Shown here: piece by piece, positions 8,788 through 60,990 of the stretch
How the letters are laid out: every line of letters starts with the position of its first letter
Numbering within the stretch: the stretch's first letter is position 1
From: Vicinamibacterales bacterium
Lineage (GTDB): Bacteria; Acidobacteriota; Vicinamibacteria; Vicinamibacterales; UBA2999
DNA: 64,000 bases
NCBI GenBank assembly: GCA_050247255.1
Contig: JBFWUM010000001.1
Coordinates: 30,653-94,652 of the forward strand
Reading direction: 5' to 3'
Notes under the pieces: generated by a model
The model's input: the letters and a program-made list of their open reading frames with translations, nothing else
Database searches by the model: none
What the model was told of the DNA's origin: nothing
Program-made: the position numbers and the translations under genes

Positions 8788-8790
8788 GCC

Positions 8791-9996: not shown

Positions 9997-10595
9997 GCAA
10001 GCGGCTGCTCGACATCGTGCTCTCGGCCGCGGGTCTGATCCTGCTGTCGCCGCTCTGGCTGGCCATTGCCGCCGCGATCAAGGCCGGCGATGGCGGCCCG
10101 GTGCTCTTCCGGCAGCCGCGCGTCGGGCGCGACGGACGCCCGTTTGTCGCCTACAAGTTCCGGTCGATGGTGCCCGATGCGGCGCGGCTGCCGCCGCGCC
10201 AGGCCACCGCGGACGATCCGCGAGTGACGCCGGTCGGCCGCCTGCTCCGGGCGACGGCGCTCGACGAGCTGCCGCAGTTGGTGAACATCCTCCGCGGCGA
10301 CATGAGCGTTGTCGGGCCCCGCCCCTTGATGCCGGGCGAGATCGAGGTCCGCGGCACCGGGGAGGTCACCGCGCTGGCGGAGGTGCCGGGCTACGCCGCG
10401 CGCCATCAGGTCCGCCCCGGACTGACCGGCCTGTCGCAGGTCTATGCGCCACGGGACGCGCTGCGCGCCCGCAAGTTCCGACTCGATGCGCTCTACGTTC
10501 GACGACAGACGCTCTGTTTCGACCTGTATTTGATCCTCATGTCTTTCTGGATTACCGCGCGCGGTCGATGGGAAACGCGCGAACGCAAGTTCTGA
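9993..10595 (+). CDS. Priming polyprenyl-phosphate sugar transferase (Bac_transf)
   Basis: KRLLDI, YKFRSM, DDPRVTPVGRLLR, LDELPQL, GDMSVVGPRP, PGLTGLSQV; GTG overlaps upstream stop. Confidence 0.93.
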   Translation: MSKRLLDIVLSAAGLILLSPLWLAIAAAIKAGDGGPVLFRQPRVGRDGRPFVAYKFRSMVPDAARLPPRQATADDPRVTPVGRLLRATALDELPQLVNILRGDMSVVGPRPLMPGEIEVRGTGEVTALAEVPGYAARHQVRPGLTGLSQVYAPRDALRARKFRLDALYVRRQTLCFDLYLILMSFWITARGRWETRERKF

Positions 10596-10607
10596 TCGGC
10601 CGGCCGT

Positions 10608-10613
10608 TATAAT
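10608..10613 (+). promoter_or_regulatory. Putative -10 box (TATAAT) upstream of reductase/RiPP genes
   Basis: Perfect TATAAT in a GC-rich intergenic gap; no convincing -35. Confidence 0.4.
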
Positions 10614-10641
10614 GTCCGGGCCGGCCCGGCTGGCAGCGTCG

Positions 10642-11802
10642 ATGCTGGATGTCGCAATCATTGGAGGCGGGCCCGGAGGCCTGTACACCGGCCTGCAGCT
10701 TGCCGAGGCCGGGTACCGCGTTGCCGTGTTCGAAGAACACGACGGCATTGGACAGCCCGTCCATTGTACCGGGGTGCTCGCCGGCGAGGCGTTCGCCGAG
10801 TTCGGCCTGCCTCAATCGTGCGTGCTCAACGAGCTGGCGACAGCACGCTTCTTTGGTCCCGGCGGCGCCGAGTTGTCGTACACCACGCCGCGTACGGAAG
10901 CGATCGTCGTCGATCGAGCGGCGCTCGACCGCTCGCTGGCGGAACGTGCCACCGCGGCGGGCGTCGAACTGCACCTCGGCGCGCGCGTCATCGGCGTCGA
11001 GCGCGAATCGCGGTGCATGGTGGTCCAGCGCGCCAGCGAGCGTGTCCAGGCGCGGGCCGTCGTCCTGGCGTGCGGCGCCAGCTACGGGCTGCAGCGCCGG
11101 CTCGGGCTCGGCATGCCGCCGGTCTCGCTGAACTCTGCGCAGCTCGAACTCCCGGCCTCCCGCAGCGGCGACGTCGAGGTCTACTTCGGCGCCGACGTCG
11201 CGCCGCGCGGTTTCGCCTGGACGGTGCCCGTGATGCGCCCTGCCGGCCACTTCGTGCGGGTCGGGTTGATGGGGCATGGGGACCCGTCGGCCAGCTTCAG
11301 GCGCTTCTTCGAGCGGATGGCCCCGTCGTGGGGCATTCCGCTGGCGGACCCGCCGGAGCCCCGGAAGCGTTTCCTCCCGCTGGCGTCGTTGCCGCGCACG
11401 TTCGGCGATCGGCTCCTGGCCGTCGGCGATGCCGCTGGCCTGGTGAAGCCGACGACCGGGGGCGGCATCTATTACAGCCTGGTGAGCGCGCGGCTGGCCG
11501 CCGAGACGCTGGCGCCGGCGCTGGCAGCCGATCGCCTCGATGCGCGGACGCTGTCGACGTTCCAGGATCGGTGGCGGCAGCGGCTCGGGCCTGAGCTGCG
11601 CGCCCAGCTGGCCCTTCGCATGCTGGCGCAGCGCCTGTCAGACGATGAAATCGATAGCCTGTTCGAGCTGGCGCGGACCAATGGCGTCATGCCGCTCATC
11701 CACCGGGCCGCCCAGTTCAACCAGCACCGCCACCTGATCGCCGAGCTGTTCCGGCACATCCCGGCGCGCCGGCTCCTGTTCCGCAGGCTGCTGCCGGTAT
11801 GA
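10642..11802 (+). CDS. FAD-dependent oxidoreductase, geranylgeranyl reductase family (alternative start 10612)
   Basis: DVAIIGGGPGG Rossmann motif, VDRAALD, VGDAAGLVKPTTGGGI. Confidence 0.88.
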   Translation: MLDVAIIGGGPGGLYTGLQLAEAGYRVAVFEEHDGIGQPVHCTGVLAGEAFAEFGLPQSCVLNELATARFFGPGGAELSYTTPRTEAIVVDRAALDRSLAERATAAGVELHLGARVIGVERESRCMVVQRASERVQARAVVLACGASYGLQRRLGLGMPPVSLNSAQLELPASRSGDVEVYFGADVAPRGFAWTVPVMRPAGHFVRVGLMGHGDPSASFRRFFERMAPSWGIPLADPPEPRKRFLPLASLPRTFGDRLLAVGDAAGLVKPTTGGGIYYSLVSARLAAETLAPALAADRLDARTLSTFQDRWRQRLGPELRAQLALRMLAQRLSDDEIDSLFELARTNGVMPLIHRAAQFNQHRHLIAELFRHIPARRLLFRRLLPV

Positions 11803-12089
11803 GCCCGGTTCACCGCGACGCGCGGCTCCGGGTCCCCGATGACGTCGTCTTCCGCGAGATCGCGGGCGAGTCGATGATCCTCCACCTCGGGTCCGGCATC
11901 TATTTCGGCCTCGATGGCGTCGGCACGCGCGCCTGGCAATTGCTGGCCGAGCACGGATCGATCGAGGGGGTCGTCTCGGCGATGGCCACCGAGTTCGATG
12001 CCGACGCCTCGACCATTTCCGCGGACGTGACCGCCCTGGTCAACGAACTCCTCCGCAAGCACCTCCTCGAGATCACACCCGACCCGTGA
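11799..12089 (+). CDS. PqqD-family RiPP recognition element (lasso B1)
   Basis: 96 aa; VVFREIAGESMILHL..GIYFGLDGVGTRAWQLL...ISADVTALVNEL; ATGA overlap with reductase. Confidence 0.93.
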   Translation: MSPVHRDARLRVPDDVVFREIAGESMILHLGSGIYFGLDGVGTRAWQLLAEHGSIEGVVSAMATEFDADASTISADVTALVNELLRKHLLEITPDP

Positions 12090-13822
12090 GCGGTCTCGGC
12101 GGCGTGCTCTACCTGGACGCCGGGCCTGCCACCGCAGGCGACGTGTCTCCGCTGCTGGCGGCGCAGGCGCATCGCGGCCCGGACGGTACGGCACTCGCCG
12201 TTGCCGGCAGCGTGGCCCTTGGTGTTGCGCGGCTGCGCACGATGCCGGACCACCTCGACATCGTCGAAACTGCCGATGGCCTGGTCGCGGCGATGGATGG
12301 TTGCGTTGACGATCGGCGCGCGTTGGCGGAAACGCTGAACGTCGGCGGTGCACCCTCAGGACTGGAGCTGATCCTCGAGGGGTACCGGCGCTGGGGCATC
12401 GGCGTCGTTGACAGGCTCGTCGGCGAGTGTGCCGTCGTCCTCTGGGATGCGCGTCTCCGGCGTCTCGTGTTGTTCAGAGACGTGATTGGCATGCGGCCGC
12501 TCTGTTACCGCGTTGCCGGTTCGCGGCTGCTCATCGCTTCGGAGCCGCAGGCGCTGGCGCGGACCCTGCCCACCAGCGTGAATGAGGGTTACCTCGCCGA
12601 GCATCTGGCGGACGATGTGGCGAGCCGAGACGAGACTCTCTTCAGGGATGTCTACCGCGTGCCGCCCGGCGATGTCGTTCTCCACGAGCGCGGGCGCCTG
12701 CGGCGCTCGCGCTACTGGCACCCGGCAGCAAAGACGATCCGCTATCGCCGGCCGGACGACTACCTCGAACACTTCCGGGAGTTGTTCGGCCACGCCGTCG
12801 AGGATCGATTGCCGGCCACTGGCGCGGCGCTGACGCTCAGCGGCGGCATCGATTCGTCAATCGTCGCCGCCGAGGTCGCGGCGATGCGCGCGGACGGACA
12901 CGCGGGCGCGGCCGCGACAGCGGCGCTGACGCTGTCGCACCCGGGGCGGCCTGAAGACGAAACCGGCCGTGCCGCCGAGACGGCAGCTCGACTCGAGATG
13001 CCCTGGAGGTCGGCGGCGGCGCTGGTTCCCGGGGAAGAGTATTTCGCGGAGGCTGCCCGCCGCGCGGCGGATCTGCCGGAACCACCCACCGCGGCGAGCG
13101 CGCGTCCCCTGCGCGACGCCGTGCGCGCTTCCGGTCACCGGGTGGTGTTGACCGGGTACGGCGGCGACGAATGGTTCTCGGCACATCAGGAGCCGCGGCA
13201 TCTGCGGGCCTGGCACCGCGCGCCCGCATGGAGCCGCCGAGCGATCCGCCGCCTGCTCGGTCGTTCGAAGGTCCCGGCGTGGATTGATCGGGGCTTTGCC
13301 GCCAGGGTGGACCTGGCCCGCCGGCTCGGGCACTGGGAGCCAGAGGTGCGGCTGCCGACTGGGGCAGCGACGCGGCTGTTCCATGGCGCGATGCACGGGG
13401 AACTGCTCTGGCGGCGCGAATTGGCCGAACGGCTTGCCGCCTGGGCAGGCTTTGAAGAGCGGTCACCGCTCTTCGATCGCCGCGTGGTCGAGTTCGCGTG
13501 CGCCCTGCCAAACGACGTGCGCGCGCGTGACGGGGTCAACAAGTGGATCCTGCGACGCGCCTACCGGGCCGTGTTGCCGCCGTGGGCGGCGAATCCGCCC
13601 GCCGCAGCAGGTTTCAACTGGATTGTCGCTGATTGCCTGCAGCGGTTCGGTGGGATTGACCGGGTGGAACGGTCCGCGGCGGCGCGCAATGGCTGGCTGG
13701 ACAGCGCGGCCCTGCGGCAGTTGCATCACGATCTCGAAGCCGGGAACCCGGGGAGCGTCCTGCCGCTCTGGAACGCGCTTGCCGTCTCATACTTTCTCGA
13801 CAGCGTCTCCCTCCCGCGTTGA
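12086..13822 (+). CDS. Asparagine synthetase-like lasso peptide cyclase (C protein)
   Basis: MSG start (no Cys1), HRGPDG, LSGGIDSS, LTGYGGDE, RSPLFDRRVVEFACALP; flanked by RRE and precursor. Confidence 0.88.
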   Translation: MSGLGGVLYLDAGPATAGDVSPLLAAQAHRGPDGTALAVAGSVALGVARLRTMPDHLDIVETADGLVAAMDGCVDDRRALAETLNVGGAPSGLELILEGYRRWGIGVVDRLVGECAVVLWDARLRRLVLFRDVIGMRPLCYRVAGSRLLIASEPQALARTLPTSVNEGYLAEHLADDVASRDETLFRDVYRVPPGDVVLHERGRLRRSRYWHPAAKTIRYRRPDDYLEHFRELFGHAVEDRLPATGAALTLSGGIDSSIVAAEVAAMRADGHAGAAATAALTLSHPGRPEDETGRAAETAARLEMPWRSAAALVPGEEYFAEAARRAADLPEPPTAASARPLRDAVRASGHRVVLTGYGGDEWFSAHQEPRHLRAWHRAPAWSRRAIRRLLGRSKVPAWIDRGFAARVDLARRLGHWEPEVRLPTGAATRLFHGAMHGELLWRRELAERLAAWAGFEERSPLFDRRVVEFACALPNDVRARDGVNKWILRRAYRAVLPPWAANPPAAAGFNWIVADCLQRFGGIDRVERSAAARNGWLDSAALRQLHHDLEAGNPGSVLPLWNALAVSYFLDSVSLPR

Positions 13823-13847
13823 AATGCCCCCATCGGGCGGGTACCAT
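13819..13847 (+). promoter_or_regulatory. Putative sigma70 promoter of precursor gene (TTGAAA-N17-TACCAT)
   Basis: TTGAAA 13819-13824, 17-bp spacer, TACCAT 13842-13847, GAGG 13854-13857, ATG 13862. Confidence 0.6.
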
Positions 13848-13861
13848 AGCGCCGAGGCCAT

Positions 13862-14014
13862 ATGACCACACCCCATGAACCCAAGCGCACCGGCCAGGAG
13901 AAGCGCCCTTACCATCGGCCGAAGCTGACCGAGTACGGGTCGGTCGCCAAGCTGACCAGGACCGGGGCCGGCACCATCCTCGAAGGGTCGTCGCCGAACA
14001 AGATGATGATGTAG
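13862..14014 (+). CDS. Lasso peptide precursor, 50 aa: MTTPHEPKRTGQEKRPYHRPKLTEYGSVAKLTR-TGAGTILEGSSPNKMMM
   Basis: Translated by hand (below the ORF-track cutoff); exact YxxPxLxxxGxxxxxT leader motif; Glu at core position 8; directly after cyclase. Confidence 0.92.
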   Translation: MTTPHEPKRTGQEKRPYHRPKLTEYGSVAKLTRTGAGTILEGSSPNKMMM

Positions 14015-14022
14015 CCTGCGCC

Positions 14023-15156
14023 GTGTCGTTGGTACTCGAAGAGCATCGGCGCTACCTCGCCGATTCGGTCCGGCTCGACGCGTTCAGCCGGGCGATCAGC
14101 GCCGTCGTTCGACCCGGCGATCGAGTCCTCGACCTGGCCAGCGGCAGCGGCATTCTCGGCTTCCTCGCCTGCCGCGCCGGCGCGGCCCGTGTGTACGCCA
14201 TCGACAACAGTCCGGCCATCCAGCTTGGCCGCGACCTGGCCAGCGCCAACGGCCTCGGCGATCGCATCACCTTCCTCCGCGAGTTTTCCACGCGCGCGAT
14301 CCTTCCCGAGCCTGCCGACGTGCTCGTGTTCGACCAGCTCGGCCCCATGGGGTACGAGGCCGGCGTGTTCGAGTTCGGACGTGATGCGAGGCAGCGGCTC
14401 CTGGCACCAGGCGCACGCATCATTCCCTCCGCCGTCGATCTCTCGTTCGCCGCGGTCGAGAGCTCGGTCCTCCGACAGCAGGTCGCCTTCTGGAGTGAAC
14501 CGGGCCGGGATTTCGACCTGTCCAGCATCGGGCCCCTGGCCGCGAACACGGTGTACACGTCGGAGGGCGGGGATCTGCGCCGGTTGAGCGACGCCGGCGT
14601 GGCAGCCTCGCTCGACATCGGCGGCGATGCCACGCACATCCAGGCGGCCTTGACACTGTCGCTTCGTGAACCCGGGCGGCTCGACGCCCTCTGTGGATGG
14701 TTCACCGCCCACCTCGCCCCGGGTGTCACCATGACCAACGCTCCCGACGCGGCGGCGCGCATCGATCGTCGCGTGGGGCTGCTGCCGATCGAGCCCGCCG
14801 TGCCGGTGCGGCCTGGAGACCAACTCACGATCACGCTGTTGATCAGGCCCGCCGACGAGCAGATTGCGTGGAGTGGTGAGGTTCGCCGCGATGGACAGGC
14901 GGTCGCGACGTTCCGTCACAGTTCCTTCCAGGGCGAGATCATTCCTGACGAGGCGCGGCAGGCGGCGGATCCGGCCACGCGGCCGCGGCTGTCGGCCCTC
15001 GGCGAAGCGCACCGCACCGTCCTGCAGATGTGCGACGGCACCGTGCCGGTTGCCGACATCGAGCGCGCCATTCTCGAGCGGCACGCGTCGGCACTGGGGA
15101 GTCCTGCCGCCGCCGCGGCGTTCGTCCACGAGGCGATCAACGCCAACTGCCGCTAA
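14023..15156 (+). CDS. Class I SAM methyltransferase, PRMT-like, with C-terminal PqqD-like helical segment
   Basis: EHRRYLADSVR, VLDLASGSGILG, RAGAARVYAID, LAPGARIIP, CGWF; tail VLQMCDGTVPVADIERAI. Confidence 0.85.
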   Translation: MSLVLEEHRRYLADSVRLDAFSRAISAVVRPGDRVLDLASGSGILGFLACRAGAARVYAIDNSPAIQLGRDLASANGLGDRITFLREFSTRAILPEPADVLVFDQLGPMGYEAGVFEFGRDARQRLLAPGARIIPSAVDLSFAAVESSVLRQQVAFWSEPGRDFDLSSIGPLAANTVYTSEGGDLRRLSDAGVAASLDIGGDATHIQAALTLSLREPGRLDALCGWFTAHLAPGVTMTNAPDAAARIDRRVGLLPIEPAVPVRPGDQLTITLLIRPADEQIAWSGEVRRDGQAVATFRHSSFQGEIIPDEARQAADPATRPRLSALGEAHRTVLQMCDGTVPVADIERAILERHASALGSPAAAAAFVHEAINANCR

Positions 15157-15160
15157 CGAG

Positions 15161-16087
15161 ATGCACTGTTACCGCGTCGGTGACCTGACGGTCGCGTCAG
15201 CGTCCGCCGTGGCCGGATTGCACGAGATCGAGACGGCTTCCACCCTGTGGCGCTTCGTCATCCGGCGCGGCGACCCGCCGCGGGTGCGCCGTGCGTATCA
15301 CCGCGCCGACAGCCCCGGGTATACGCACCGGTGGCGCACGCTGGGCCGCCTCGGCTTCGGGCACATCATCCACTTTCACCGCGCCGCCACCTTCGTGCTC
15401 GACGTGGCCGGTCAGCAGATCACGGCCTTCCAACGCCGCGGCCAGTCGCGCGAGGAGATCCAGCAGTTGCTGGTGGCGCAAGTGCTGCCGCTCGTCCTCG
15501 GCCTGGGAGGACGCGTGGTGTTGCATGCCAGCGCGGCGGTGTCGGCGCGCGGGGCGCTCGCGTTTGTCGGCGCGCCGCGTCAGGGAAAGTCGTCGATTGC
15601 GCTGGCGCTCGCCGCGCGCGGCTATGCCGTGGCGGCGGATGATTGCCTGGTGATCGATCCGCGCCGCGGCTGCCGCATCGTGCCAGTGGATGTGGGCGTC
15701 CGCTTGTGGCCGGACGCCGCGCTCCGACACGGGGCGACATCGTCCGGACAGCGTGCCGGGTTTGCAGCGCATGCCCGTGGTAAGCGGCGTGTGCCGCTGG
15801 CCGACCTTGGCATACGCGGCGTCGCGCGCCGGCCTGTCCTGCGTCGGCTGTACCTGCTCAATCCCGGCGGCCGCCGGGTCTCGTCGGCGCCCGTGGCGCC
15901 GAGGGAAGCGGTCATTCGATTGCTCGAGGCGAGCTTCCAGCTGGATCATGACGCCGCAGACGCCATGCGGCAGGCCTTCGAGAACCTGACACGGGTCGTT
16001 GAGGCCGTCGAGGTGCGGCGGCTCTCGTATCCGCGATCACCAACCTGCCTGCCCGAGATCGTGCGCACGCTCGAAGCCGACGGATAG
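15161..16087 (+). CDS. HPr kinase-like P-loop kinase (paeninodin PadeK-like)
   Basis: VLHASAA, GAPRQGKSS Walker A, ADD; ATG 4 nt after methyltransferase stop. Confidence 0.82.
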   Translation: MHCYRVGDLTVASASAVAGLHEIETASTLWRFVIRRGDPPRVRRAYHRADSPGYTHRWRTLGRLGFGHIIHFHRAATFVLDVAGQQITAFQRRGQSREEIQQLLVAQVLPLVLGLGGRVVLHASAAVSARGALAFVGAPRQGKSSIALALAARGYAVAADDCLVIDPRRGCRIVPVDVGVRLWPDAALRHGATSSGQRAGFAAHARGKRRVPLADLGIRGVARRPVLRRLYLLNPGGRRVSSAPVAPREAVIRLLEASFQLDHDAADAMRQAFENLTRVVEAVEVRRLSYPRSPTCLPEIVRTLEADG

Positions 16088-16110
16088 AAGACAGGCGCCT
16101 CGTACGCAAT

Positions 16111-16139
16111 AAAGGGCTCCGGAACCTCCGGAGCCCTTT
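16111..16139. terminator. Bidirectional intrinsic terminator
   Basis: AAAGGGCTCCGGA-ACC-TCCGGAGCCCTTT hairpin between convergent genes. Confidence 0.85.
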
Positions 16140-16161
16140 GTGTGTACGAACCGCCTGGCGG

Positions 16162-19100
16162 CTACGGAATGAGCGTCAGTCGGCCGCTGCTGTTCATCGT
16201 TAAGCGGTCAGCGAGCACCGTGCCCAGGAGCTGCGCGCCGCCGTTGATCGTCACGGTCCTCGTCGGCACGAACACCGATCCATACAGGCTCATGCTGTTG
16301 TTGAGCTTGAGGTTGCCGTTCGTGACGCGCAGCGTCACCCAGTCGGGCCGTGCCGCCGCGCCGATGTTCCCGGTCGGAGCCATCTGGTTGCGCACGGTGA
16401 TGATGACCGGCCCGACGACCTGGATCTGGCTGCCGGCGTTGAGCGTCAGCGTCTGGAAGTTGTAGACCGCCGGCTCGGTCGCGCCGGCGACACCGAGGAT
16501 GAAGACGCTCCCGGAGTTGGCGATGAACGTCCGGTAGGTCCCCGGGGGTACCGCCACCTGGCGTCCGCTCTGGTTGATGGTCAGGTCACGCAGCGTCGCG
16601 AAATTACCCGGCGTCTGGCTGTTGTTGTTCAGCTGTACGTTCCGGGTGCCGCCATAGTTGGTCGGCGGGTTCGCAATCGTCGGCCAGGTTTCCGGATCCG
16701 TCCGGCGGACGACGTGGCCGACCGTGGCGCCGCTGTTGATCGTCACGCGGTGGTTGGTCGGCGTGGCCGCGCCGCTGCCGTTGATCGTCCCCTGGTAGTT
16801 CGGCGTGCCGTTGATGGTAATCGCCGGCATGCCGCGCATCAGCAGGTCGCCGGTCAGCGTCGCGTTGCCGTTGAACTGGATGTTCACGGCATTCATGATG
16901 TGGACCGTCCCGTCGACGATGCTGCTGGAGTTGAAATAGGTCTCGCGGCGAATCTTCGCGCCGGCCGCAGGTGTCGCCGTCACCTCGATCGTCACCGTCG
17001 CCGCGGCGCTTGCCGCGGTGCCCCGCAGCGCCCGGTAGGTGAACGTGTCCGTTCCGGTGAAGCCGTCTTCAGGCGTGTAGGTGAACGCGCCGTTGGCCTG
17101 CAGCGTGAGCGTCCCGTTCGCGGGTGTCGTGACGACCTCGGCCGTCAACGAGCCCTCGCCGGGGTTCTCGTCGTTGCTGAGCACGCCTGGCGCCGGCGTG
17201 GTGAGCGCCGTGTTGATCCGCGTTTCGTAGGCATCAGCCACCGCGGTCGGCGCCCCGGCCGTGACCGTGATCGTGACGGTCGTGCTGGCGCTCTCGGCCT
17301 CATCCTCGTCGACTGCGCGGTAGGCGAAGGTCGCCGTTCCCACGAAGCCATTGGCCGGCGTGTAGGTAAACGAGCCGTCCGGGTTGAGCGACACCGTCCC
17401 GCTCGAGGCAGGCTGCGCCAGTTCGGCCGTCAGCATGCCGCCATCGGGATCGGAATCGTTGTCGAGCACCCCTTCGCCGCTGACGGTGAGGGTCGTGTTG
17501 CCCTCGACCGTGTAGGTGTCGGCGGTGGCCGTCGGCGCGCGATTGACCCGGATGCTGACGGTGGCCGTGTTGCTGGTCTGCGAGCCACGGGTGATGCGAT
17601 AGGTGAACGTCGTCGTCCCGCCGAAGTTCGCGGGCGGCGTGTAGGCAAACGCCCCGTTGGTCTGGAGGACCACGCTGCCGTTGCCCGGGTTCGAGACAAT
17701 GGCGACCGTCACCTGCCCCTGGCCTTCCGGCACCTCGTCATTGCCCAGGACGCCAGGCGTCTGCACGTTGAGCACGGTCCCGGCGCTGGCGACGTACTGG
17801 TCGTCGACGGCGGTCAGCGGCGCCGCCACCGTGATCGTCACCGTCACCGGCTCGCTCTCGCCCTCGTTCTCGTCGCGGGCGCGGTAGGTAAAGGTCACCG
17901 AGCCGCTGAAGCCGGTGGCCGCGACGTAGCTGAAGGAGCCGTCCGGGTTCAACGTCAGCGTCCCGTTGGCCGGGCCGCTGACCAGGACCGCCGTCAGGTC
18001 GTCGTCGTCGCCGTCAGAATCGTTGTCGAGCACGCCCGGCGCCGGCACCTCCAGCGTGTCGCCGGCGGTGGCTTCGTACGAGTCAGGCGCGCCGGTTGGA
18101 ACCTGGTTCGGCGCGGTGATGGTCCAGGTGAAGCTCGCGGACCCCGATGCGCCCATCGTGTCGTTCACGGTCACCGTCACCGAGTGCGTCCCGACGCCGC
18201 TCGCCGCCGGCGTGCCGCTGATGATGCCGGTGCTGCCGGCGATGGCGAGCCCGGGGGGGAGGCCGGTGGCACTGAACGTGAGCGCCTGCTCGTCGGGATC
18301 GCTGGCGGCGATCTGGAGCTGGACCTCGGTGCCGGCGACCGTCGTCTGGTTCGTCGCCGAGACCGACGGCGGCTGGTTGGTCGGTCCGCCGTTGCACGCG
18401 TTCAGCAGCGGACCGTTGGCCACCGTCGAGTCCCACCGGCAGACGCTGTCAACCGCGCCGCCGTTTCCCTGGTCGTGCGGCACCCCGACGAACACGCGTC
18501 CGGTGCAGCTGCCGCCGTTCTCGTCCGTGGCTTCGAAGCCGATCTCGTAAACGCGGCCGTTCTGGCCCCCCTGGCGCTCGCGGCGCACTCTCGCCTCGTC
18601 GTCGCCGACGCCCCAGCCGTCGATGGCGAACGCGCCGTCACCCAGGGTGTCGGTCGGCTCGTCCTGCCAGATGTACTTCACCACCACGTCGAGGTCATCG
18701 CCATCGCCGTCGGGATCGGTGATCCCTTCGATCTCGATTTCGTCGGTGCGGCGATGGTTCGGCGGCCAGAGCGTCGACGGCGAGGCCGTTGCCGCGGAGC
18801 AAATCGGCGGGGCGTTCTGCGACAGGACCGTGATCGTGACCGTCGCCGTGGCGGCGAGCCCGTCGCCGTCGATCGCATCGTAGGTGAAGGTGACCGGGCC
18901 GGTGTAGCCGAGCGTGCTCTCGTAGGTGAAGCCGCCGTCGGCCAGCAGCATCAGCGTTCCGCGTGACGGGCTGGTCACGCGCGCAGCGGTCAGCACGGCG
19001 TCGTCGACATCCGTGTCATTGGTCAGCACGCCGGGAGCGGGGACGACGAGCGTCTGTCCTTCCACCACCGTGTAGCTGTCGTTGACCGCCGTCGGCGCGT

Positions 19101-22100: not shown

Positions 22101-23322
22101 CCGCGCGGGTCACCGGATCCACGACCGGCCGCCGATCGATCACGATCCCGTACGAACCGGTCAGCTCGGTCGTCGCGATGACCCCCGGCTGTCCTTCGGC
22201 ACAGTCCGCATGGGGACCGTTGGCCGGATCGGGATTGCAGATCATCAGCAGCGGCTCGAGCTGCGCGTCGAAGATCTCGATCTTGTAGTTCGCCGAGTCG
22301 GCCACGAACAGCCGGCCGCTGTCGTCGAACGCCACCTGGTTCGGCATCCAGAAGGAGCCGCGCGGCGACGGCCACTCGGCGTCGACGCCCCACGACGGGT
22401 CGATCAGGTTGGCCGGGTTGCCGAGCGCCTCGACCAGGCAGAACTGCGCGTCATAGACGAGCACCTGGCTCATGCCGTCGCCATCCGTCGCCGGGTGGGA
22501 GGCGTCGAACCAGGGGGTCCAGGTCGTCACCGCGACAGCAGGGGCGCCCGGCACGGTGCACGATGCAGCCGGCTCCTGGATCGTCACGCCGGGAACGACG
22601 GCAATCTGCGACGGCATCGCGCGGTGGCCCCGCACCGCGCCATTGGGCGGAAGGTTCTTGACGAACCAGAAGTCCTCGGCGGCGGTGAACACCGAGAGGC
22701 GGCCGCCGTACTGATCGGCGACGAGCACGTTGCCGGAGGCATCGACGGCGACGCCTTCCGGGAAGAGCAGTTGTCCCTCGGCAATGGGATCCGAGGGCGC
22801 AATGGTCAGCATCCCGTCCGCCGCGATGGCGTTGATGCCGCCGCCGAAGGTCCGCGCGTCCTCGCCGAAGTAATCCCACGAAACGATGCGATGATTCAGT
22901 GTGTCGGCCGCATAGACGCGGTAGGCGCTGAGGCGCGCGGTGTCGGTCTCCGGGCTGTTCTCGAACCCGGCGGTCGGACCCGGATCGAACACGGCCACGC
23001 CGCGGGGGTCGAACAACTGATCGACGCCGATCGGGGCGCCGCCGGGGCACTGCAACGGCGCGCCCAGCCAGCGCAGGGACTCGAGGTGATCGGGGTAGAG
23101 ATCGTCCGGGTCGAACACGTCGTGCCCGAGGCCCGTGTCGCCGGTCACATCCGCCCACTCGCAGTCGCCCGCCGGTTGGCCGAAGGACGGCAGCGTCTGC
23201 CAGATCTGCCCTTCGTCGTCGCGTTCGAATATGCCGGGCGCCTGTTGAGCGGTGACGCCGCCGGCAAAGGCTGCAACGGCGAGCCCGACGAGGACGATGC
23301 GTGAGGTTCGTTTGAATGTCAT
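16162..23322 (-). CDS. Giant secreted adhesin-like protein (2386 aa): NHL propeller, tandem Ig/cadherin-like repeats, He_PIG-like domain
   Basis: Sec signal peptide; NHL motifs (PEGVAVDASGNVLVAD); >10 NxPPxAxDD..VLxND.DPD..FTY repeats; LWPPNH module; TGLPPGLAI; Asn/Gly-rich C-terminus. Confidence 0.9.
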   Translation of the reverse strand: MTFKRTSRIVLVGLAVAAFAGGVTAQQAPGIFERDDEGQIWQTLPSFGQPAGDCEWADVTGDTGLGHDVFDPDDLYPDHLESLRWLGAPLQCPGGAPIGVDQLFDPRGVAVFDPGPTAGFENSPETDTARLSAYRVYAADTLNHRIVSWDYFGEDARTFGGGINAIAADGMLTIAPSDPIAEGQLLFPEGVAVDASGNVLVADQYGGRLSVFTAAEDFWFVKNLPPNGAVRGHRAMPSQIAVVPGVTIQEPAASCTVPGAPAVAVTTWTPWFDASHPATDGDGMSQVLVYDAQFCLVEALGNPANLIDPSWGVDAEWPSPRGSFWMPNQVAFDDSGRLFVADSANYKIEIFDAQLEPLLMICNPDPANGPHADCAEGQPGVIATTELTGSYGIVIDRRPVVDPVTRAAMPDWQRLVIANHRDQEISVFEVNLEAAEPEAEFAFRLRSEGGLAGFPRAVAQDQVGRYFVVVPGLDKVQMFDIPALAVFDQTWAPADSGGSTTSVRPNEDFYVTYSIVVPPLKATVLDVEPTLSWTGPAQPVDANSLPISVPIAEAVTGPLPEADLQQGQVLTYKFRFKALDSSAADMVFTIGAEGNPVNGVNATAAATKTVTVPIVCQSCEQNPPVVTADPLGTEYSYNSEPIYGDGRINLIASDPSPGGGSAESSGISRITYRFIGPEEARQPGTHTVVFTPNEANPTAPVDIDGETKVGGGSALISLTESGRHTIVFQAWDGYGNPSGEQQLAFWLDLEPPTVTFEAPAHVGTDPNDRRWWKTDVTLTAVKTDTQTPTSVTMVEASTPPAGASVLASSATFTAEGMDQRVQVTLTDLVGNTATVFSPVVAIDKTAPQTTASPASGTYVGPLTVTLGGADPMSGVRNVRYQLSGAACDAPDAPAACSSQVVVSGSSTTLVLTAGGSTTVTFFGTDWATNAETVRTATYVLNRPPVGASDTLTVAEDTPGSVLVLGNDSDPDDGDTLELVAIVQAPQHGRAEISGNTILYTPAADYTGADSLTYRVRDSGGLTAIGTVTITVTGAVDPPNASHDFVTTPEETPIDVAVLLNDANPDGDALSVVSFTQGRGTVTQNPDGTLRYTPATNFFGEDTFTYDIRNGSNLTDGATVFVTVTPVDDPPNAVDDSAATDEETAATIAVTANDTHPDGDDFTLTGITAPPAAHGTAAIQGGAILFTPAANFFGTATFSYTITDADGDTDTATVTVTVRPIDDLPTAVNDSATTAEDTAVTIDVLDNDGSPDGTATIVATTPPPTAAGSISVSDNTITFTPAANYSGTASFTYTLADPDDDRATATVTVTVTPVNDPPVAVDDTATTPEDTPLDIDVRANDSDPDDDSLSVTAVTQPASGGAVTINTNGTVRLEPAANFSGTVTFTYTISDGTESRTATVTVTVTSVNDAPTAVNDSYTVVEGQTLVVPAPGVLTNDTDVDDAVLTAARVTSPSRGTLMLLADGGFTYESTLGYTGPVTFTYDAIDGDGLAATATVTITVLSQNAPPICSAATASPSTLWPPNHRRTDEIEIEGITDPDGDGDDLDVVVKYIWQDEPTDTLGDGAFAIDGWGVGDDEARVRRERQGGQNGRVYEIGFEATDENGGSCTGRVFVGVPHDQGNGGAVDSVCRWDSTVANGPLLNACNGGPTNQPPSVSATNQTTVAGTEVQLQIAASDPDEQALTFSATGLPPGLAIAGSTGIISGTPAASGVGTHSVTVTVNDTMGASGSASFTWTITAPNQVPTGAPDSYEATAGDTLEVPAPGVLDNDSDGDDDDLTAVLVSGPANGTLTLNPDGSFSYVAATGFSGSVTFTYRARDENEGESEPVTVTITVAAPLTAVDDQYVASAGTVLNVQTPGVLGNDEVPEGQGQVTVAIVSNPGNGSVVLQTNGAFAYTPPANFGGTTTFTYRITRGSQTSNTATVSIRVNRAPTATADTYTVEGNTTLTVSGEGVLDNDSDPDGGMLTAELAQPASSGTVSLNPDGSFTYTPANGFVGTATFAYRAVDEDEAESASTTVTITVTAGAPTAVADAYETRINTALTTPAPGVLSNDENPGEGSLTAEVVTTPANGTLTLQANGAFTYTPEDGFTGTDTFTYRALRGTAASAAATVTIEVTATPAAGAKIRRETYFNSSSIVDGTVHIMNAVNIQFNGNATLTGDLLMRGMPAITINGTPNYQGTINGSGAATPTNHRVTINSGATVGHVVRRTDPETWPTIANPPTNYGGTRNVQLNNNSQTPGNFATLRDLTINQSGRQVAVPPGTYRTFIANSGSVFILGVAGATEPAVYNFQTLTLNAGSQIQVVGPVIITVRNQMAPTGNIGAAARPDWVTLRVTNGNLKLNNSMSLYGSVFVPTRTVTINGGAQLLGTVLADRLTMNSSGRLTLIP

Positions 23323-23477
23323 CGGCTGTATGTGTTCCCCGCGCGGCGGTGACCGAAGTGAGATCTGGAGTCACTTCCTGTCATGTCGTGGCGGTGATAT
23401 TAAACATCTATATTGTCGGACGGAATGGCTGTGTAGGCCAATCGAATTCAAGAGTATTTAAATCGACTGTCTTGAAA
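23323..23477. promoter_or_regulatory. AT-rich divergent promoter region with TTCAAGA-N16-TCTTGAA inverted repeat
   Basis: Low-GC gap between divergent genes; arms at 23447-23453 and 23470-23476. Confidence 0.4.
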
Positions 23478-24569
23478 ATGAACACACGGCAAGGAACGGC
23501 GTCCACTGACTTTCTCGCCGTGTTAGGAATGGCCGAGTATTCAGCGGCTGGCGAGGCGCTGCTTGCTCGGGCCACGGAAGAGGGCGTCGAGGCTCTCCTG
23601 TCAGCCCAACTATCAGATACGGAAGGGATTACTGGACATCAGCAGAACTGGTGGCGGCTGCAGCGCGCCGCCCTGGTCGCCGCGGATGCGCTCCGCCACG
23701 TCGAACTTCAGCGCCTTGTCACGTCGTGGGGCGCCGCCCCGATCGACACCCTGCTCCTCAAAGGCAGCGGACTGGCCTACACGCTCTACCCGGCACCGTG
23801 GCTGCGGCCGCAATCCGACGTCGACGTGTGGTGCGCGGCGTCGGCCGTGCCGGCCATGCGGGCGTCGCTCGAAGCGCTCGGGTACGCGGACGTGCGCGGC
23901 TGGAACAACGAGGGCAAGCACCAGTTTCACTACCGGCGCACCGACGCGCACGGCATCGCGCGGCTCGTCGAAGTACACCTGCAGATTGCCAATCCCGAAG
24001 TGTTCGCCGGCGTGCTGTCGTTTCCCGCGGCGGCAGCGGCCGCCACGCCGACACCGGGGCTGCCCGGGGGACGCACCCTCGCAGCCTCCCACGCGCTGCT
24101 GCATGCCTGCGTGCATCGCGCCGCGCACCACTTCGGCAGCCGCCGCCTGATCTGGCTGTATGACATCCACCTGCTCGCGGCCCGCCTCTCGGCAGCGGAG
24201 TGGTCGGCGTTCGTCGACGGTGCACGCGCCGGGCGCGTGGCCGCGGTGTGCCGGGATGGACTGGCCGCGGCGGCGTCGGTATACGCGACGTCGATTCCCG
24301 CCGCCGTCGACGCCGCCCTTGGTGCGGCGCGAGACGAACCGACGCGCCGGTTCCTGGCGGCGCCGCGTGAAGTCGACGTTCGGATGTCGACGCTCGGCGC
24401 GCTGCCGACATGGCGCGCGCGGGCCCGCCACGTGCGCGGCTGGCTCGTCCCCCCGGTGGCGTACATGCGGGCTCGCTACGCGATCCGCTATCGAGCACTG
24501 CTGCCGTTCTGGTACGTGTATCGCGTGATCACCCGGCTGCCGTTCTGGTGGCGCCGTTATCGGCCGTGA
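23478..24569 (+). CDS. Nucleotidyltransferase family protein (NTP_transf_5-like); start uncertain (23478 or 23529)
   Basis: LLLKGSGLAYTLYPAPWLRPQSDVD, VEVH, LLHACVH, RLIWLYDI. Confidence 0.85.
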   Translation: MNTRQGTASTDFLAVLGMAEYSAAGEALLARATEEGVEALLSAQLSDTEGITGHQQNWWRLQRAALVAADALRHVELQRLVTSWGAAPIDTLLLKGSGLAYTLYPAPWLRPQSDVDVWCAASAVPAMRASLEALGYADVRGWNNEGKHQFHYRRTDAHGIARLVEVHLQIANPEVFAGVLSFPAAAAAATPTPGLPGGRTLAASHALLHACVHRAAHHFGSRRLIWLYDIHLLAARLSAAEWSAFVDGARAGRVAAVCRDGLAAAASVYATSIPAAVDAALGAARDEPTRRFLAAPREVDVRMSTLGALPTWRARARHVRGWLVPPVAYMRARYAIRYRALLPFWYVYRVITRLPFWWRRYRP

Positions 24570-35496: not shown

Positions 35497-36822
35497 TTAT
35501 GCGCCGATGGCGCGGCGGACGACCTCGTCGTTGATTTCGATCCGCATGTTCGCCTTCGCCTTGGTCATGTAGGCGCTGAAGAAACGGTTCTTGCGCTCGG
35601 CCAGCAGTTCCTCGCGGAACTGGTCGCGCGCCTGACGGAATTCCTCCGGCGTCACGTCGTCGCGCTCGGTGACGCGGACGATATAGGTGCCGTCCGAGGT
35701 GGTGATCGGGTCGCTGACGCCGCCAACCGGCAGCGCGAACGCGGCGCGATCGATTTCCTGGCTGACGCCGACGTCCGGCAGCGCCGATTCACGCGGCACC
35801 AGCTCGGTGGTCTTCGCCTCGAACCCCTGCGCCTTGGCGGCTGCGGCGAAGTCGCGCGCGCTGCGCAGCCCGGCGGCGATCTCGCCGCCGCGCGTCCGGC
35901 TCATCTCGGTGGCCTTGGTGCGCAGCACGTCCTCGCGCACCCGGTCGCGCACTTCGTCGAGCTCCGGCACGTACGGATCGCGCTTGGCGGTCACGGTGAA
36001 GTAGACCGGTCCGCGCGGGGTGGTCACCGCGTCGGTGACGGTGTTGTCGGCCAGGGTGAATGCTGCGCTCGCCACCTGCGGCGCCGGGCCGAGCCCGGGC
36101 ACCGGGTCCTCGCGGGCGAAGAAGCCCGACTCGGTCACCGTCAGCCCGCGCTCGCGCGCGACGGCGTCGAGGTCCGACGGATCGTCGATGCGCGTGTTGA
36201 GCTGCGTCGTCTGGTCGGCGATCTGCTGGTCGACACGCTGCCAGGCGAGCTGGTCTTCGATCTGCGCCCGCACCTCGTCCAGCGTCCGCGTCACCGCCGG
36301 CCGCTTGTCGGCGACCTTGATGATGTGGAAGCCGAACTGCGACTGCACGAGGTCGCTCACCTGGCCGGGCTCCATCGCGAACGCGGCGTTCTCGAACTCG
36401 GCGACCATCTGGCCGCGGCCGAAGTAATCGAGGTCGCCGCCGTTGACCTTCGACGCCTCGTCCTCGGAGTACTGGCGGGCGAGCGCGGCGAAGTCGGCGT
36501 TCGGCGCCTTCGCCTGCGCCAGGATCCCTTCGGCCCGGGCGCGGACCTCCGCCTCGTTCTTGCCGGCGGTCGACAGCAGGATGTGGCTGGCGCGCACCTG
36601 TTCTGGCGTCTGGTACTGCTGGATGTTCTGGTTGTAGTAGGCCTGCACGTCGGCCGGCGTCACCTGGGTGCGCTGGCGCAGCGCGTCGCGGTCGAGCAGG
36701 AGGTACTTGATCCGGCGCTGCTCGCCGCGGCGGTATTCGGCCTTGTGCGCGTCGTAGTACGTCGCGATGTCCTGATCGCTGGCGGTGACCTTGTCGCGGA
36801 ACTGTGCGGCGGTCAGCGCCAC
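35497..36822 (-). pseudogene. 5'-truncated PpiD/SurA-like parvulin chaperone
   Basis: VRASHIL, FAALARQYSED, GGDLDYF, FGFHIIKV; recognisable sequence starts abruptly at VALTAAQFRDK with no membrane anchor or SurA_N region. Confidence 0.8.
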
Positions 36823-36830
36823 CGGCCGGT
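36815..36830. other. Junction between repeat units
   Basis: Two divergent genes, both lacking 5' ends, abut with no intergenic DNA; palindrome ACCGGCCGGT at 36821-36830. Confidence 0.75.
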
Positions 36831-53667: not shown

Positions 53668-53670
53668 GCC

Positions 53671-55475: not shown

Positions 55476-55521
55476 TCGGCCGGCCGTTATAATGTCCGGG
55501 CCGGCCCGGCTGGCAGCGTCG

Positions 55522-56682: not shown

Positions 56683-56969
56683 GCCCGGTTCACCGCGACG
56701 CGCGGCTCCGGGTCCCCGATGACGTCGTCTTCCGCGAGATCGCGGGCGAGTCGATGATCCTCCACCTCGGGTCCGGCATCTATTTCGGCCTCGATGGCGT
56801 CGGCACGCGCGCCTGGCAATTGCTGGCCGAGCACGGATCGATCGAGGGGGTCGTCTCGGCGATGGCCACCGAGTTCGATGCCGACGCCTCGACCATTTCC
56901 GCGGACGTGACCGCCCTGGTCAACGAACTCCTCCGCAAGCACCTCCTCGAGATCACACCCGACCCGTGA
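56679..56969 (+). CDS. PqqD/RRE protein (copy 2)
   Basis: Same as 11799-12089. Confidence 0.93.
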   Translation: MSPVHRDARLRVPDDVVFREIAGESMILHLGSGIYFGLDGVGTRAWQLLAEHGSIEGVVSAMATEFDADASTISADVTALVNELLRKHLLEITPDP

Positions 56970-58702: not shown

Positions 58703-58741
58703 AATGCCCCCATCGGGCGGGTACCATAGCGCCGAGGCCAT

Positions 58742-58894
58742 ATGACCACACCCCATGAACCCAAGCGCACCGGCCAGGAGAAGCGCCCTTACCATCGGCC
58801 GAAGCTGACCGAGTACGGGTCGGTCGCCAAGCTGACCAGGACCGGGGCCGGCACCATCCTCGAAGGGTCGTCGCCGAACAAGATGATGATGTAG
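58742..58894 (+). CDS. Lasso peptide precursor (copy 2)
   Basis: Same as 13862-14014. Confidence 0.92.
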   Translation: MTTPHEPKRTGQEKRPYHRPKLTEYGSVAKLTRTGAGTILEGSSPNKMMM

Positions 58895-58902
58895 CCTGCG
58901 CC

Positions 58903-60036: not shown

Positions 60037-60040
60037 CGAG

Positions 60041-60967: not shown

Positions 60968-60990
60968 AAGACAGGCGCCTCGTACGCAAT

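What the first reader, a model, noticed from the sequence alone, without database searches (positions are those of the whole stretch)
13862..14014. Unannotated 50-aa precursor with a predicted Thr1-Glu8 ring and a Met-Met-Met tail
Seen: MTTPHEPKRTGQEKRPYHRPKLTEYGSVAKLTRTGAGTILEGSSPNKMMM, absent from the ORF track. Y17-P20-L22-G26-T32 matches the YxxPxLxxxGxxxxxT motif. With Thr at -2, the core is TGAGTILEGSSPNKMMM (17 aa) with Glu8, a canonical ring size. Thr at position 1 is atypical (usually Gly/Cys/Ser/Ala); an alternative is a Gly1-Glu7 ring. The tail has no aromatic plug residue, so Lys/Met would have to lock the thread. A Cu(I)/Ag(I)-binding or redox role for MMM is speculation.
Basis: partly seen in the sequence, partly recalled or inferred. 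Interest (0 to 1): 0.85.

Follow-up and report, generated by a model that had tools for sequence, protein, structure and literature searches.

The report
Lasso peptide precursor in Acidobacteria
This small gene is a genuine precursor of a lasso peptide (a knotted, ribosomally made natural product) from a soil-type Acidobacterium; it is an ordinary member of a large, still uncharacterised branch of that well-known class, although its gene cluster lacks its own leader-cutting protease.

Summary
The 50-aa ORF at 13862-14014(+) is exactly as described and is not a chance ORF. It scores above the curated cut-off of NCBIfam NF033521 (lasso leader). It sits 39 nt after an Asn-synthase-type cyclase that follows a PqqD/RRE gene, and 8 nt before a PRMT-like methyltransferase and an HprK-like kinase.

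Two 50-aa orthologues (84% and 67% identity) and about 70 family members from Vicinamibacterales genomes and soil metagenomes share the leader. In 63 unique cores the acidic residue is at position 8 in 58 and at position 9 only in 5. Position 1 is Thr in 9. The Thr1-Glu8 register is therefore well supported, and Thr1 is not unusual in this family.

The MMM end is not conserved in the closest orthologues, but Met/Lys-rich tails are a family trait.

- The cluster has no B2 leader peptidase. The only good B2 lies on another contig, in a second lasso cluster that lacks an RRE.
- The cluster is embedded in an exopolysaccharide locus.
- It lies in a perfect 44,880-bp tandem duplication, which gives a second copy at 58742-58894.

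Verdict: a real lasso precursor and a new member of a known kind, of moderate interest. Maturation and threading are untested.

The parts
13862..14014 (+). Lasso precursor gene (A), copy 1. Leader is residues 1-33 (nt 13862-13960), core is residues 34-50 (nt 13961-14011), stop is 14012-14014.
   Evidence: Translation. NF033521 24.2 bits against cut-off 19. GC3 0.88. Orthologues P0002 and P0003. Family alignment statistics.
58742..58894 (+). Identical second copy of the precursor gene, inside the tandem duplication
   Evidence: Window 1-19120 equals 44881-64000 with 0 mismatches. NF033521 hits at C1:44562-44618 and C1:89442-89498.
11799..12089 (+). B1: PqqD-type RiPP recognition element (96 aa). 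Second copy at 56679-56969.
   Evidence: PF05402 E 1e-16. NF033536 lasso PqqD chaperone 43.5 bits, below its cut-off of 80. Syntenic in relatives.
12086..13822 (+). C: Asn-synthase-type lasso cyclase (578 aa). Overlaps the B1 stop by 4 nt. Second copy at 56966-58702.
   Evidence: PF00733 E 1.6e-35. Best NCBIfam model is the lasso isopeptide cyclase NF033535, 209 bits, below its cut-off of 525. The PP-loop S252 G253 G254 D256 S257 is invariant in 6 relatives. The protein begins VSG, so there is no Cys2. It is one of the two weakest-scoring Asn-synthase loci in the genome, the other being the second cyclase on C11.
14023..15156 (+). PRMT-like SAM methyltransferase (377 aa), starting 8 nt after the precursor stop. 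Probable tailoring enzyme. Second copy at 58903-60036.
   Evidence: PDB PRMT6 E 8e-18, CARM1 E 4e-15. Pfam PrmA and PRMT_C are weak. An MT-like gene is present in 19 of 24 metagenomic family loci of >=4 kb, directly after A in 14 of them, and in 6 of 9 relatives' loci.
15161..16087 (+). HprK-related kinase (308 aa from ATG 15161; the mechanical ORF begins at 14864). Second copy at 60041-60967.
   Evidence: TIGR04352 HprK_rel_A E 3.3e-6, 26.4 bits, far below its cut-off of 200. A GKS P-loop is in the translation and the start choice is shown there. Syntenic in relatives.
23316..24569 (+). NTP_transf_5 nucleotidyltransferase. Possibly associated with the lasso genes.
   Evidence: PF14907 E 2.1e-33. 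Found near lasso genes in many relatives. This family glycosylates phospho-lasso peptides in pseudomycoidin (PMC8498205, passages).
10612..11802 (+). FAD oxidoreductase of the geranylgeranyl-reductase type, directly upstream of B1. Probably belongs to the polysaccharide locus rather than the lasso pathway.
   Evidence: Pfam. 366 relatives found; among the 80 loci kept, many show no lasso gene within the flank held.
36813..36814 (.). Junction of the perfect 44,880-bp tandem duplication that doubles the whole cluster
   Evidence: C1 22586-67465 equals 67466-112345. A 10-bp microhomology sits at the junction. Public contigs do not bridge it by the tool's 31-letter rule.

Best explanation
The ORF is the precursor (A) gene of a class II lasso peptide in a Vicinamibacterales (Acidobacteriota) genome.

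Inferred pathway:
1. The PqqD-type B1 protein binds the leader motif (Y17, P20, L22).
2. A B2 cysteine protease cuts after Arg33, using Thr32 as the -2 residue.
3. The Asn-synthase-type cyclase adenylates Glu8 and joins it to the new Thr1 amine. This gives an 8-residue ring with a 9-residue loop and tail (GSSPNKMMM). The predicted neutral monoisotopic mass is 1705.78 Da before tailoring.

No B2 gene is in the cluster. The protease is most likely supplied in trans by the only good B2 in the genome, on contig C11. That B2 sits in a second, paeninodin-like lasso cluster that in turn has no RRE.

The PRMT-like methyltransferase and the HprK-like kinase that follow the precursor gene most likely tailor the peptide. 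The kinase probably acts on the conserved ring Thr5. The methyltransferase probably acts on Lys14, or on Arg in relatives. The conserved Lys14 and Met16, possibly after modification, would be the steric lock.

Shown: the gene, its family, the conserved register, the neighbouring enzymes and the absence of B2 in cis.
Inferred: cleavage site, ring, trans-acting B2, targets of the tailoring enzymes and threading.
For: Family membership and context:
- NF033521 scores above its cut-off and is unique in the genome.
- The operon is tight: B1 and C overlap by 4 nt, C to A is 39 nt, A to MT is 8 nt, MT to kinase is 4 nt.
- The cyclase PP-loop is intact.

Conservation:
- The orthologues P0002 (84%) and P0003 (67%) keep T1, G2, G4, T5, L7, E8, G9, S10, P12, N13, K14 and M16, while the leader N-terminus drifts.
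- 9 of 11 translated hits in relatives are motif-bearing small ORFs, and they sit in the same B1-(B2)-C-A-MT-K synteny.
- In metagenomes, 71 of 81 pattern matches are complete precursors, giving 63 unique cores. D/E is at position 8 in 58 and at position 9 only in 5. Thr1 occurs in 9. Ser/Thr is at position 5 in 45 of the 58 cores with D/E at position 8. Lys/Arg is in the tail in 56 of 63.

B2 supplied in trans:
- B1 and C also abut without room for B2 in G027 (L034) and in metagenomic loci L134, L157 and L166, so the arrangement recurs.
- The genome encodes a B2 (82.9 bits) on C11.
- C11 matches the rest of the genome in tetranucleotide use (r 0.995).
- A complex prediction of B1 + precursor + C11 B2 gave weak support: score 0.36, best control 0.02. 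That mark was reached by 51 of 78 solved complexes and 2 of 108 mismatched pairs, but at 0.60 or under by only 5 of those 78 and by all 4 mismatches that passed (of 180). The runs agree in at least 60% of contacts and the partner's pLDDT is at least 75. B1-B2 is a known type of pair, so the pass may reflect likeness only.
Against: - No B2 (PF13471) lies anywhere in the window or on contig C1, whereas 17 of 18 unique relatives' loci with both A and C have B2 in cis.
- There is no expression or peptide evidence.
- The tail has no aromatic, His or Arg residue to act as a plug.
- The lasso-specific NCBIfam models for cyclase (209 against 525 bits), RRE (43.5 against 80) and kinase (26.4 against 200) are all below their curated cut-offs.
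- The core contains no Arg for a PRMT-type enzyme.
- The genome is a 167-contig assembly with 6.55% contamination, so it is not proven that C11 and C1 share a cell.
- No ABC exporter of the lasso type was seen.
Confidence: 0.7

Rival explanations
1. The gene is a true family member, but the pathway is crippled in this organism. With the B2 gene lost from between B1 and C, the leader is not removed and no mature lasso peptide is made, so the cluster is a relic.
For: B2 is in cis in 17 of 18 unique relatives' loci but absent here. No B2 lies on C1. The support for B1 pairing with the C11 B2 is only weak.
Against: All five genes (B1, C, A, MT, K) are intact with coding-type GC3. The orthologues keep the core. 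The B2-less abutting B1-C layout recurs in at least 4 other loci (L034, L134, L157, L166), which is not what random decay would give. A good B2 exists elsewhere in the genome.
Confidence: 0.18
2. Cleavage occurs one residue later, giving a Gly1-Glu7 seven-residue ring.
For: Gly is the commonest position-1 residue in the family (23 of 63) and in characterised lasso peptides (PMC13632552, passages). Seven-residue rings are known (PMC12480086, passage).
Against: The spacing from the invariant leader Thr to the acidic residue is fixed in the family. With the canonical cut, the acid is at position 8 in 58 of 63 cores. Members with Ser, Ala or Gly at the position homologous to Thr34 have no alternative register. 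A later cut would place Arg, not Thr, at -2.
Confidence: 0.07
3. The macrolactam forms, but the peptide is a branched-cyclic, unthreaded or easily unthreading product, because Lys and Met are too small to lock an 8-residue ring.
For: There is no Phe, Trp, Tyr, His or Arg in the 9-residue tail. 20 of 63 family cores also lack such residues, so the family may rely on something else.
Against: The recurrence of such tails, with conserved Lys/Met at fixed distances from the C-terminus and a conserved methyltransferase and kinase, suggests a lock made by modification. Lasso cyclases fold before ring closure (established knowledge, e.g. PMC12480086 introduction passage).
Confidence: 0.15
4. A chance ORF in a high-GC intergenic stretch that is not translated.
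For: High-GC genomes carry many spurious ORFs (109 ORFs of >=40 aa in 14 kb). There is no RNA or peptide evidence.
Against: NF033521 scores above its cut-off and is found only here in the 4.46-Mb genome. GC3 is 0.88. There is an SD-like GAGG. Orthologues and synteny are conserved.
Confidence: 0.02

Closest known systems
Phosphorylated lasso peptides of the paeninodin type (HPr-kinase homologues such as ThcoK and SyanK; pseudomycoidin with its nucleotidyltransferase)
   Same: Separate B1 and B2 proteins, an Asn-synthase cyclase, an HprK-like kinase in the operon, and PF14907 nucleotidyltransferase and sulfotransferase genes in the neighbourhood or in the sister cluster on C11 (PMC8498205, passages).
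   Different: Those kinases act on a C-terminal Ser. This core ends in Met and its conserved hydroxyl residue is ring Thr5. There is a PRMT-like methyltransferase, no B2 in cis and no ABC exporter, and the cluster is embedded in a polysaccharide locus. The kinase match is weak (26.4 bits against a cut-off of 200).
Bsf lasso system of Bradymonadales (BsfK phosphorylates Ser3 together with BsfB1)
   Same: A kinase with low identity to HPr kinases acts on a residue inside the ring region of the precursor. The YxxPxL leader is shared (PMC10368454, passages).
   Different: Bsf has Ile at -2, whereas here it is the canonical Thr. The phylum differs. No methyltransferase was seen in the passages read.
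NCBIfam NF033521 'lasso RiPP family leader peptide-containing protein'
   Same: The peptide matches residues 17-35 to model positions 1-18 of 20, above the curated cut-off.
   Different: The model describes only the leader. It says nothing about the core, ring size or tailoring.
Lassomycin-type methylated lasso peptides (StspM)
   Same: A SAM methyltransferase encoded beside the precursor acts on the linear precursor (PMC8498205, passages).
   Different: That enzyme is an O-methyltransferase that esterifies the C-terminal carboxylate. The enzyme here is a homologue of protein arginine N-methyltransferases.
Lasso peptides with non-small residues at position 1 (palassoptides with Phe1 and Glu1; the tolerant cyclases PalC and FusC)
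   Same: An 8-residue class II ring with a first residue other than Gly, Ala, Ser or Cys (PMC13632552, passages).
   Different: Thr1 here is predicted only. I did not find a characterised Thr1 lasso peptide, but my search was limited.

Membership tests
Lasso peptide (RiPP class) | Precursor with a leader motif YxxPxL...T(-2) recognised by an RRE | tested here: met
   Y17, P20, L22 and T32. NF033521 24.2 bits against cut-off 19.
Lasso peptide (RiPP class) | Asp or Glu at core position 7, 8 or 9 for the isopeptide bond | tested here: met
   Glu at core position 8. The same register holds in 58 of 63 family cores, with position 9 only in 5.
Lasso peptide (RiPP class) | ATP-dependent Asn-synthase-type cyclase encoded beside the precursor | tested here: met
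   PF00733. The best NCBIfam model is the lasso cyclase, though below its cut-off. The PP-loop is invariant. There is no Cys2.
Lasso peptide (RiPP class) | PqqD-type RRE (B1) | tested here: met
   PF05402 E 1e-16.
Lasso peptide (RiPP class) | Transglutaminase-type leader peptidase (B2, PF13471) in the cluster | tested here: not met
   None in the window or on contig C1. The only matches are on C11 (82.9 bits) and C34 (27.6 bits). My own B2 HMM also finds none in the window unit. The feature is met at genome level only.
Lasso peptide (RiPP class) | Bulky plug residues in the tail that trap the thread | tested here: inconclusive
   The tail GSSPNKMMM has no aromatic, His or Arg residue. Lys14 and Met16 are conserved in the orthologues and at equivalent C-terminal distances across the family.
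Lasso peptide (RiPP class) | Macrolactam and threaded topology of the mature product | not testable with these tools
   Needs MS/MS, NMR, and protease and heat assays.
Phosphorylated (paeninodin-type) lasso peptides | HPr-kinase homologue in the cluster | tested here: inconclusive
   TIGR04352 E 3.3e-6 but 26.4 bits against a cut-off of 200. Pfam Hpr_kinase_C E 0.046. A P-loop is present.
Phosphorylated (paeninodin-type) lasso peptides | C-terminal Ser as the phosphorylation site | tested here: not met
   The core ends in Met-Met-Met. By contrast, the candidate precursor of the C11 cluster ends in Ser.

The most novel reading that the evidence does not exclude
The peptide represents a large, uncharacterised lasso subfamily of soil Acidobacteriota in which three things hold.

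(i) A protein-arginine-methyltransferase homologue and an HprK-like kinase are standard tailoring enzymes. N-methylated Lys/Arg and/or a phospho-Thr5, rather than aromatic side chains, lock the thread. The Met/Lys-rich tails, usually ending in Cys-Leu, would have a function of their own.

(ii) In this genome two lasso pathways share parts reciprocally. The cluster in the window contributes the only lasso-linked RRE, and the C11 cluster contributes the only good B2.

(iii) The constant placement inside exopolysaccharide loci, next to a giant cadherin-like surface protein, reflects a role at the cell surface or in the matrix rather than as an antibiotic.
Probability: 0.25. Interest if true: 0.65.

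Novelty: new member of a known kind. Interest (0 to 1): 0.4.

Why it matters
As a single gene it adds one more predicted lasso precursor, which an existing NCBI model would already name.

The wider picture found while checking it is more useful. A widespread precursor family in soil and groundwater Acidobacteriota shares a nearly invariant leader and a fixed 8-residue ring register. Its tails are Met/Lys-rich and usually end in Cys-Leu. A PRMT-type methyltransferase and an HprK-type kinase usually sit right after the precursor gene. In the open literature I could search, I found no lasso paper that describes a PRMT-type tailoring enzyme, and no listed paper combines lasso peptides with methionine-rich tails.

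If the trans-supplied B2 is real, this genome is a natural case of two RiPP pathways sharing a recognition element and a protease.

No product from this bacterial order appeared in my searches: only 3 papers hold both 'lasso peptide' and 'Vicinamibacter', each term once, and by title neither of the 2 listed concerns lasso peptides. A first characterised compound would therefore have some value for natural-product discovery.

Tried and rejected
Searches that returned nothing or failed:
- The search for related loci with the cyclase alone found no relative in genome contigs or in metagenome contigs.
- The cyclase alignment A1 was too divergent to seed a scan. I used the neighbouring FAD-oxidoreductase alignment A2 and a degenerate leader DNA pattern instead.
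- A strict regular expression for the leader found candidates in only 14 of 80 FAD-oxidoreductase loci. A leader HMM raised this to 18 of 80 at E<0.01. The remaining loci either have no lasso genes in the flank held or were not resolved.
- Expression: no RNA holder listed. All three runs listed come from one study and are recorded as probable DNA ('DNA?'), and two may be the source of this DNA.

Results that did not settle a question:
In X1 and X2 one record ends at 36823 and the next begins at 36814. In X3 one record runs 30 letters past the junction.
- I considered that the FAD oxidoreductase is a lasso tailoring enzyme. I rejected this as unsupported, because many of the 80 loci kept show no lasso gene nearby.
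- I considered that the MT's presence might correlate with Lys/Arg in the tail. The data do not discriminate: 56 of 63 cores have Lys/Arg anyway, and one MT-bearing locus (L109) has a core without either.
- I looked for a PqqD domain on C11 even at E<=10 and found none. The third PqqD gene, on C75, is not next to lasso genes.
- The B2 of relative G027 is a small stand-alone gene on another contig. I did not resolve its neighbours.

Literature:
- The 2017 genome-mining survey of lasso clusters (recalled) was not held under the id I tried, so I could not check what it says about such clusters.
- The review PMC13352647 gave no passage on position 1.
- I did not request any paper supplements. The supplementary alignments of PMC10368454 (Acidobacteriaceae precursors) may show related peptides.

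Full report
**1. Observation**

Window 13862-14014(+) translates to the 50-residue peptide quoted in the finding. Several results show it is a coding ORF rather than a chance one:
- Its codon-position GC is 0.51/0.51/0.88 in a 70% GC genome.
- A GAGG lies 4 nt upstream of the ATG.
- The ORF is packed between real genes. It starts 39 nt after the stop of a 578-aa Asn-synthase homologue and ends 8 nt before a 377-aa methyltransferase.
- NCBIfam NF033521 ('lasso RiPP family leader peptide-containing protein') matches residues 17-35 at 24.2 bits against a curated cut-off of 19.
- A six-frame scan of the whole 4.46-Mb assembly with that model at E<=1 finds only this ORF and an identical second copy. 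None of 14 control genomes exceeds the cut-off.

The claim that the ORF is unannotated could not be tested. The exact protein is present in the public protein collection.

**2. Genomic setting**

The plus-strand operon reads as follows:
- priming sugar transferase (Bac_transf, in the 9813-10595 frame);
- FAD oxidoreductase, 10612-11802;
- PqqD/RRE (B1), 11799-12089;
- cyclase (C), 12086-13822;
- precursor (A);
- PRMT-like methyltransferase, 14023-15156;
- HprK-related kinase, most likely starting at ATG 15161 and ending at 16087.

Downstream lie a 2386-aa cadherin/Big_9 surface protein on the minus strand and an NTP_transf_5 nucleotidyltransferase.

The rest of the window is an exopolysaccharide locus. 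It carries many GT4 glycosyltransferases, a carbamoyltransferase, a Wzy-type ligase, a GNVR/AAA chain-length kinase, a Poly_export protein, an ABC-2 permease and a deacetylase.

Record titles of the closest relatives place the organism in Acidobacteriota, order Vicinamibacterales.

**3. A duplication**

Window 1-19120 is identical to 44881-64000. In the assembly the window is C1:30653-94652. C1 carries a perfect 44,880-bp tandem duplication (22586-67465 equals 67466-112345) with a 10-bp microhomology at the junction, which falls at window 36813/36814. The whole cluster, precursor included, is therefore present twice, with the second precursor copy at 58742-58894. Public short-read contigs of three runs from one study break at the junction or pass it by only 30 letters, so it is not independently confirmed.

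**4. Is the peptide conserved?**

Yes, at three levels.

*Close orthologues.* Two 50-aa proteins in the 5.8-billion-protein collection are 84% and 67% identical. Both keep the leader motif and core residues T1, G2, G4, T5, L7, E8, G9, S10, P12, N13, K14 and M16. They end in KRMP and KRMA instead of KMMM, and the leader N-terminus diverges.

*Related genomes.* I searched the peptide in 40 related genomes and translated 11 of the hits. Nine gave small ORFs with the same leader. In the 9 loci fetched, the synteny FAD-ox / B1 / (B2) / C / A / MT / kinase recurs.

*Metagenomes.*
- 71 of these are complete ORFs with the aromatic residue at -17 and Pro at -14. They give 63 unique cores.
- In those cores D/E is at position 8 in 58, at position 9 only in 5, and absent in none.
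- Position 1 is G 23, S 12, A 11, T 9, V 3, N 2, and F, H, K once each.

The selection used only the leader, so the core statistics are unbiased with respect to the ring.

The Thr1-Glu8 register is thus the family register, and Thr1 is a common variant. A 2026 paper also states that Gly and Ala predominate at position 1, but that in a large survey only Pro was never seen there (PMC13632552, passages).

**5. The tail**

MMM as such is not conserved. Across the family, however:
- Met makes up 10.1% of tail residues against 1.4% of ring residues.
- 19 of 63 cores have at least two Met in the last eight residues.
- 4 cores contain MMM.
- Lys or Met dominate positions -4 to -6 from the C-terminus.
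- 44 of 63 cores end in Cys-Leu, which the window's subclade has lost.
- 20 of 63 cores have no Phe, Trp, Tyr, His or Arg in the tail.

A metal-binding or redox role remains pure speculation.

**6. Tailoring enzymes**

*Methyltransferase.* It is a clear homologue of eukaryotic protein arginine methyltransferases (PRMT6 E 8e-18, CARM1 E 4e-15). In the alignment to PRMT6, the first acidic residue of the substrate-binding loop is Asp rather than Glu, and the second Glu is kept. I identify that loop as the 'double-E loop' from recalled knowledge. An MT-like gene is present in 19 of 24 metagenomic family loci of at least 4 kb, and it directly follows the precursor gene in 14.

*Kinase.* The kinase match is weak, but the gene is syntenic. 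Ser/Thr occupies core position 5 in 45 of the 58 cores with D/E at position 8, and position 4 or 5 in 56 of 58.

By analogy with kinases that act on lasso precursors (PMC8498205 and PMC10368454, passages), I infer phosphorylation of Thr5 and N-methylation of Lys14. Neither is shown. The window's core has no Arg, whereas its two orthologues have Arg15.

**7. The missing protease**

No PF13471 (B2) match exists in the window or on C1. B1 and C overlap by 4 nt, so nothing is hidden between them. Among 18 unique relatives' loci holding both A and C, 17 have B2 in cis. The exception is G027 (L034), whose precursor also starts with Thr and whose B2 lies on another contig. In three metagenomic loci (L134, L157, L166) B1 and C likewise abut. 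The layout is therefore recurrent and is unlikely to be simple decay.

The own genome has one good B2 (82.9 bits), on C11. It sits inside a second cluster made of NTP_transf_5, B2, an HprK-like kinase, a sulfotransferase, a cyclase and a candidate precursor that ends in Ser, which is the paeninodin-like pattern. That cluster has no PqqD match even at E<=10. C11 is compositionally typical of the genome.

A complex prediction of the window's B1, the precursor and the C11 B2 gave weak support:
- The score was 0.36 and the best control 0.02.
- The mark was reached by 51 of 78 solved complexes and 2 of 108 mismatched pairs.
- At 0.60 or under it was reached by only 5 of those 78 solved complexes, and by all 4 mismatches that passed (of 180).
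- The runs agree in at least 60% of contacts and the partner's pLDDT is at least 75.

A pass for a known kind of pair shows likeness, not that this copy binds.

I therefore propose, as an inference, that B2 acts in trans and that the two clusters share B1 and B2.

**8. Comparison with what is known, and verdict**

The gene is a member of the lasso class by leader, acidic position, RRE and cyclase. It fails the 'B2 in the cluster' feature, and its topology is untestable here.

It resembles the phosphorylated lasso systems (kinase, nucleotidyltransferase, sulfotransferase neighbours). It differs in four ways: there is no C-terminal Ser, it has a PRMT-type methyltransferase, it has no ABC exporter, and it sits in a polysaccharide locus.

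Lasso clusters in Acidobacteria are already known from mining (PMC9064862 and PMC10368454, passages). The searches for papers linking lasso peptides to arginine methyltransferases or to methionine-rich sequences, described under Why it matters, found nothing relevant. They cover only the held open-access library.

The finding itself is a correct call of a new member of a known kind. The family-level features and the trans-B2 arrangement give it moderate interest (0.4).

I did not request any paper supplements.

Noticed in passing
window 1-19120 = 44881-64000; junction at 36813/36814 (G000:C1 22586-112345): A perfect 44,880-bp tandem duplication with a 10-bp microhomology at the junction doubles the polysaccharide locus and the lasso cluster. 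It is either a very recent amplification or an assembly artefact. Public contigs do not bridge the junction by the tool's 31-letter rule.
   Followed up: partly
G000:C11 about 4000-10600 (locus L005): A second, paeninodin-like lasso cluster: NTP_transf_5, B2 (8947-9393, minus strand), an HprK-like kinase, a sulfotransferase, a cyclase (5482-7296, minus strand) and a candidate precursor in the ORF 5305-5472 (minus strand) with a WxxPxL leader, Asp at predicted core position 8 and a C-terminal Ser. There is no PqqD/RRE on this contig.
   Followed up: partly
loci L126-L203 (metagenomes) and L045-L124 (genomes): The precursor family usually ends in Cys-Leu (44 of 63 unique cores) and has Lys/Met-rich positions -4 to -6. 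One core carries a long Gly/Met repeat before the Cys-Leu. The window's subclade lacks the Cys-Leu end. The function of this C-terminal signature is unknown.
   Followed up: partly
window 14023-15156 and relatives: A bacterial homologue of eukaryotic protein arginine methyltransferases is conserved directly after the lasso precursor gene. Relative G039 carries two tandem copies.
   Followed up: partly
window 16162-23322 (-): A 2386-aa surface protein with 10-11 Big_9/cadherin-like repeats, an NHL repeat and a He_PIG domain. A homologue flanks the lasso genes in several relatives (L034, L035, L041, L127).
   Followed up: no
window 35497-37053 (-): A PPIC-type rotamase ORF spans the duplication junction, so this copy is a chimera of the two ends of the duplicated unit.
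   Followed up: no
window 1572-2456 (+) and 2497-3402 (+): A 294-aa ORF has only the glutaminase part and the first about 40 positions of the Asn-synthase domain. It is followed by a 301-aa ORF with no family match. This may be a split or degenerate amidotransferase of the polysaccharide locus.
   Followed up: no
G000:C75 5501-5920 (-) (locus L125): A third PqqD-domain gene stands away from any cyclase or B2, next to PilZ and SIS-domain genes and a 2423-aa ORF. It may be an orphan RRE.
   Followed up: partly
record titles: Several close relatives of this Vicinamibacterales locus are deposited under titles such as uncultured Bifidobacterium, Cyanobacteriota, Acidimicrobiia or proteobacterium. 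At 52-60% identity of the FAD oxidoreductase and the same synteny, these labels look doubtful.
   Followed up: no
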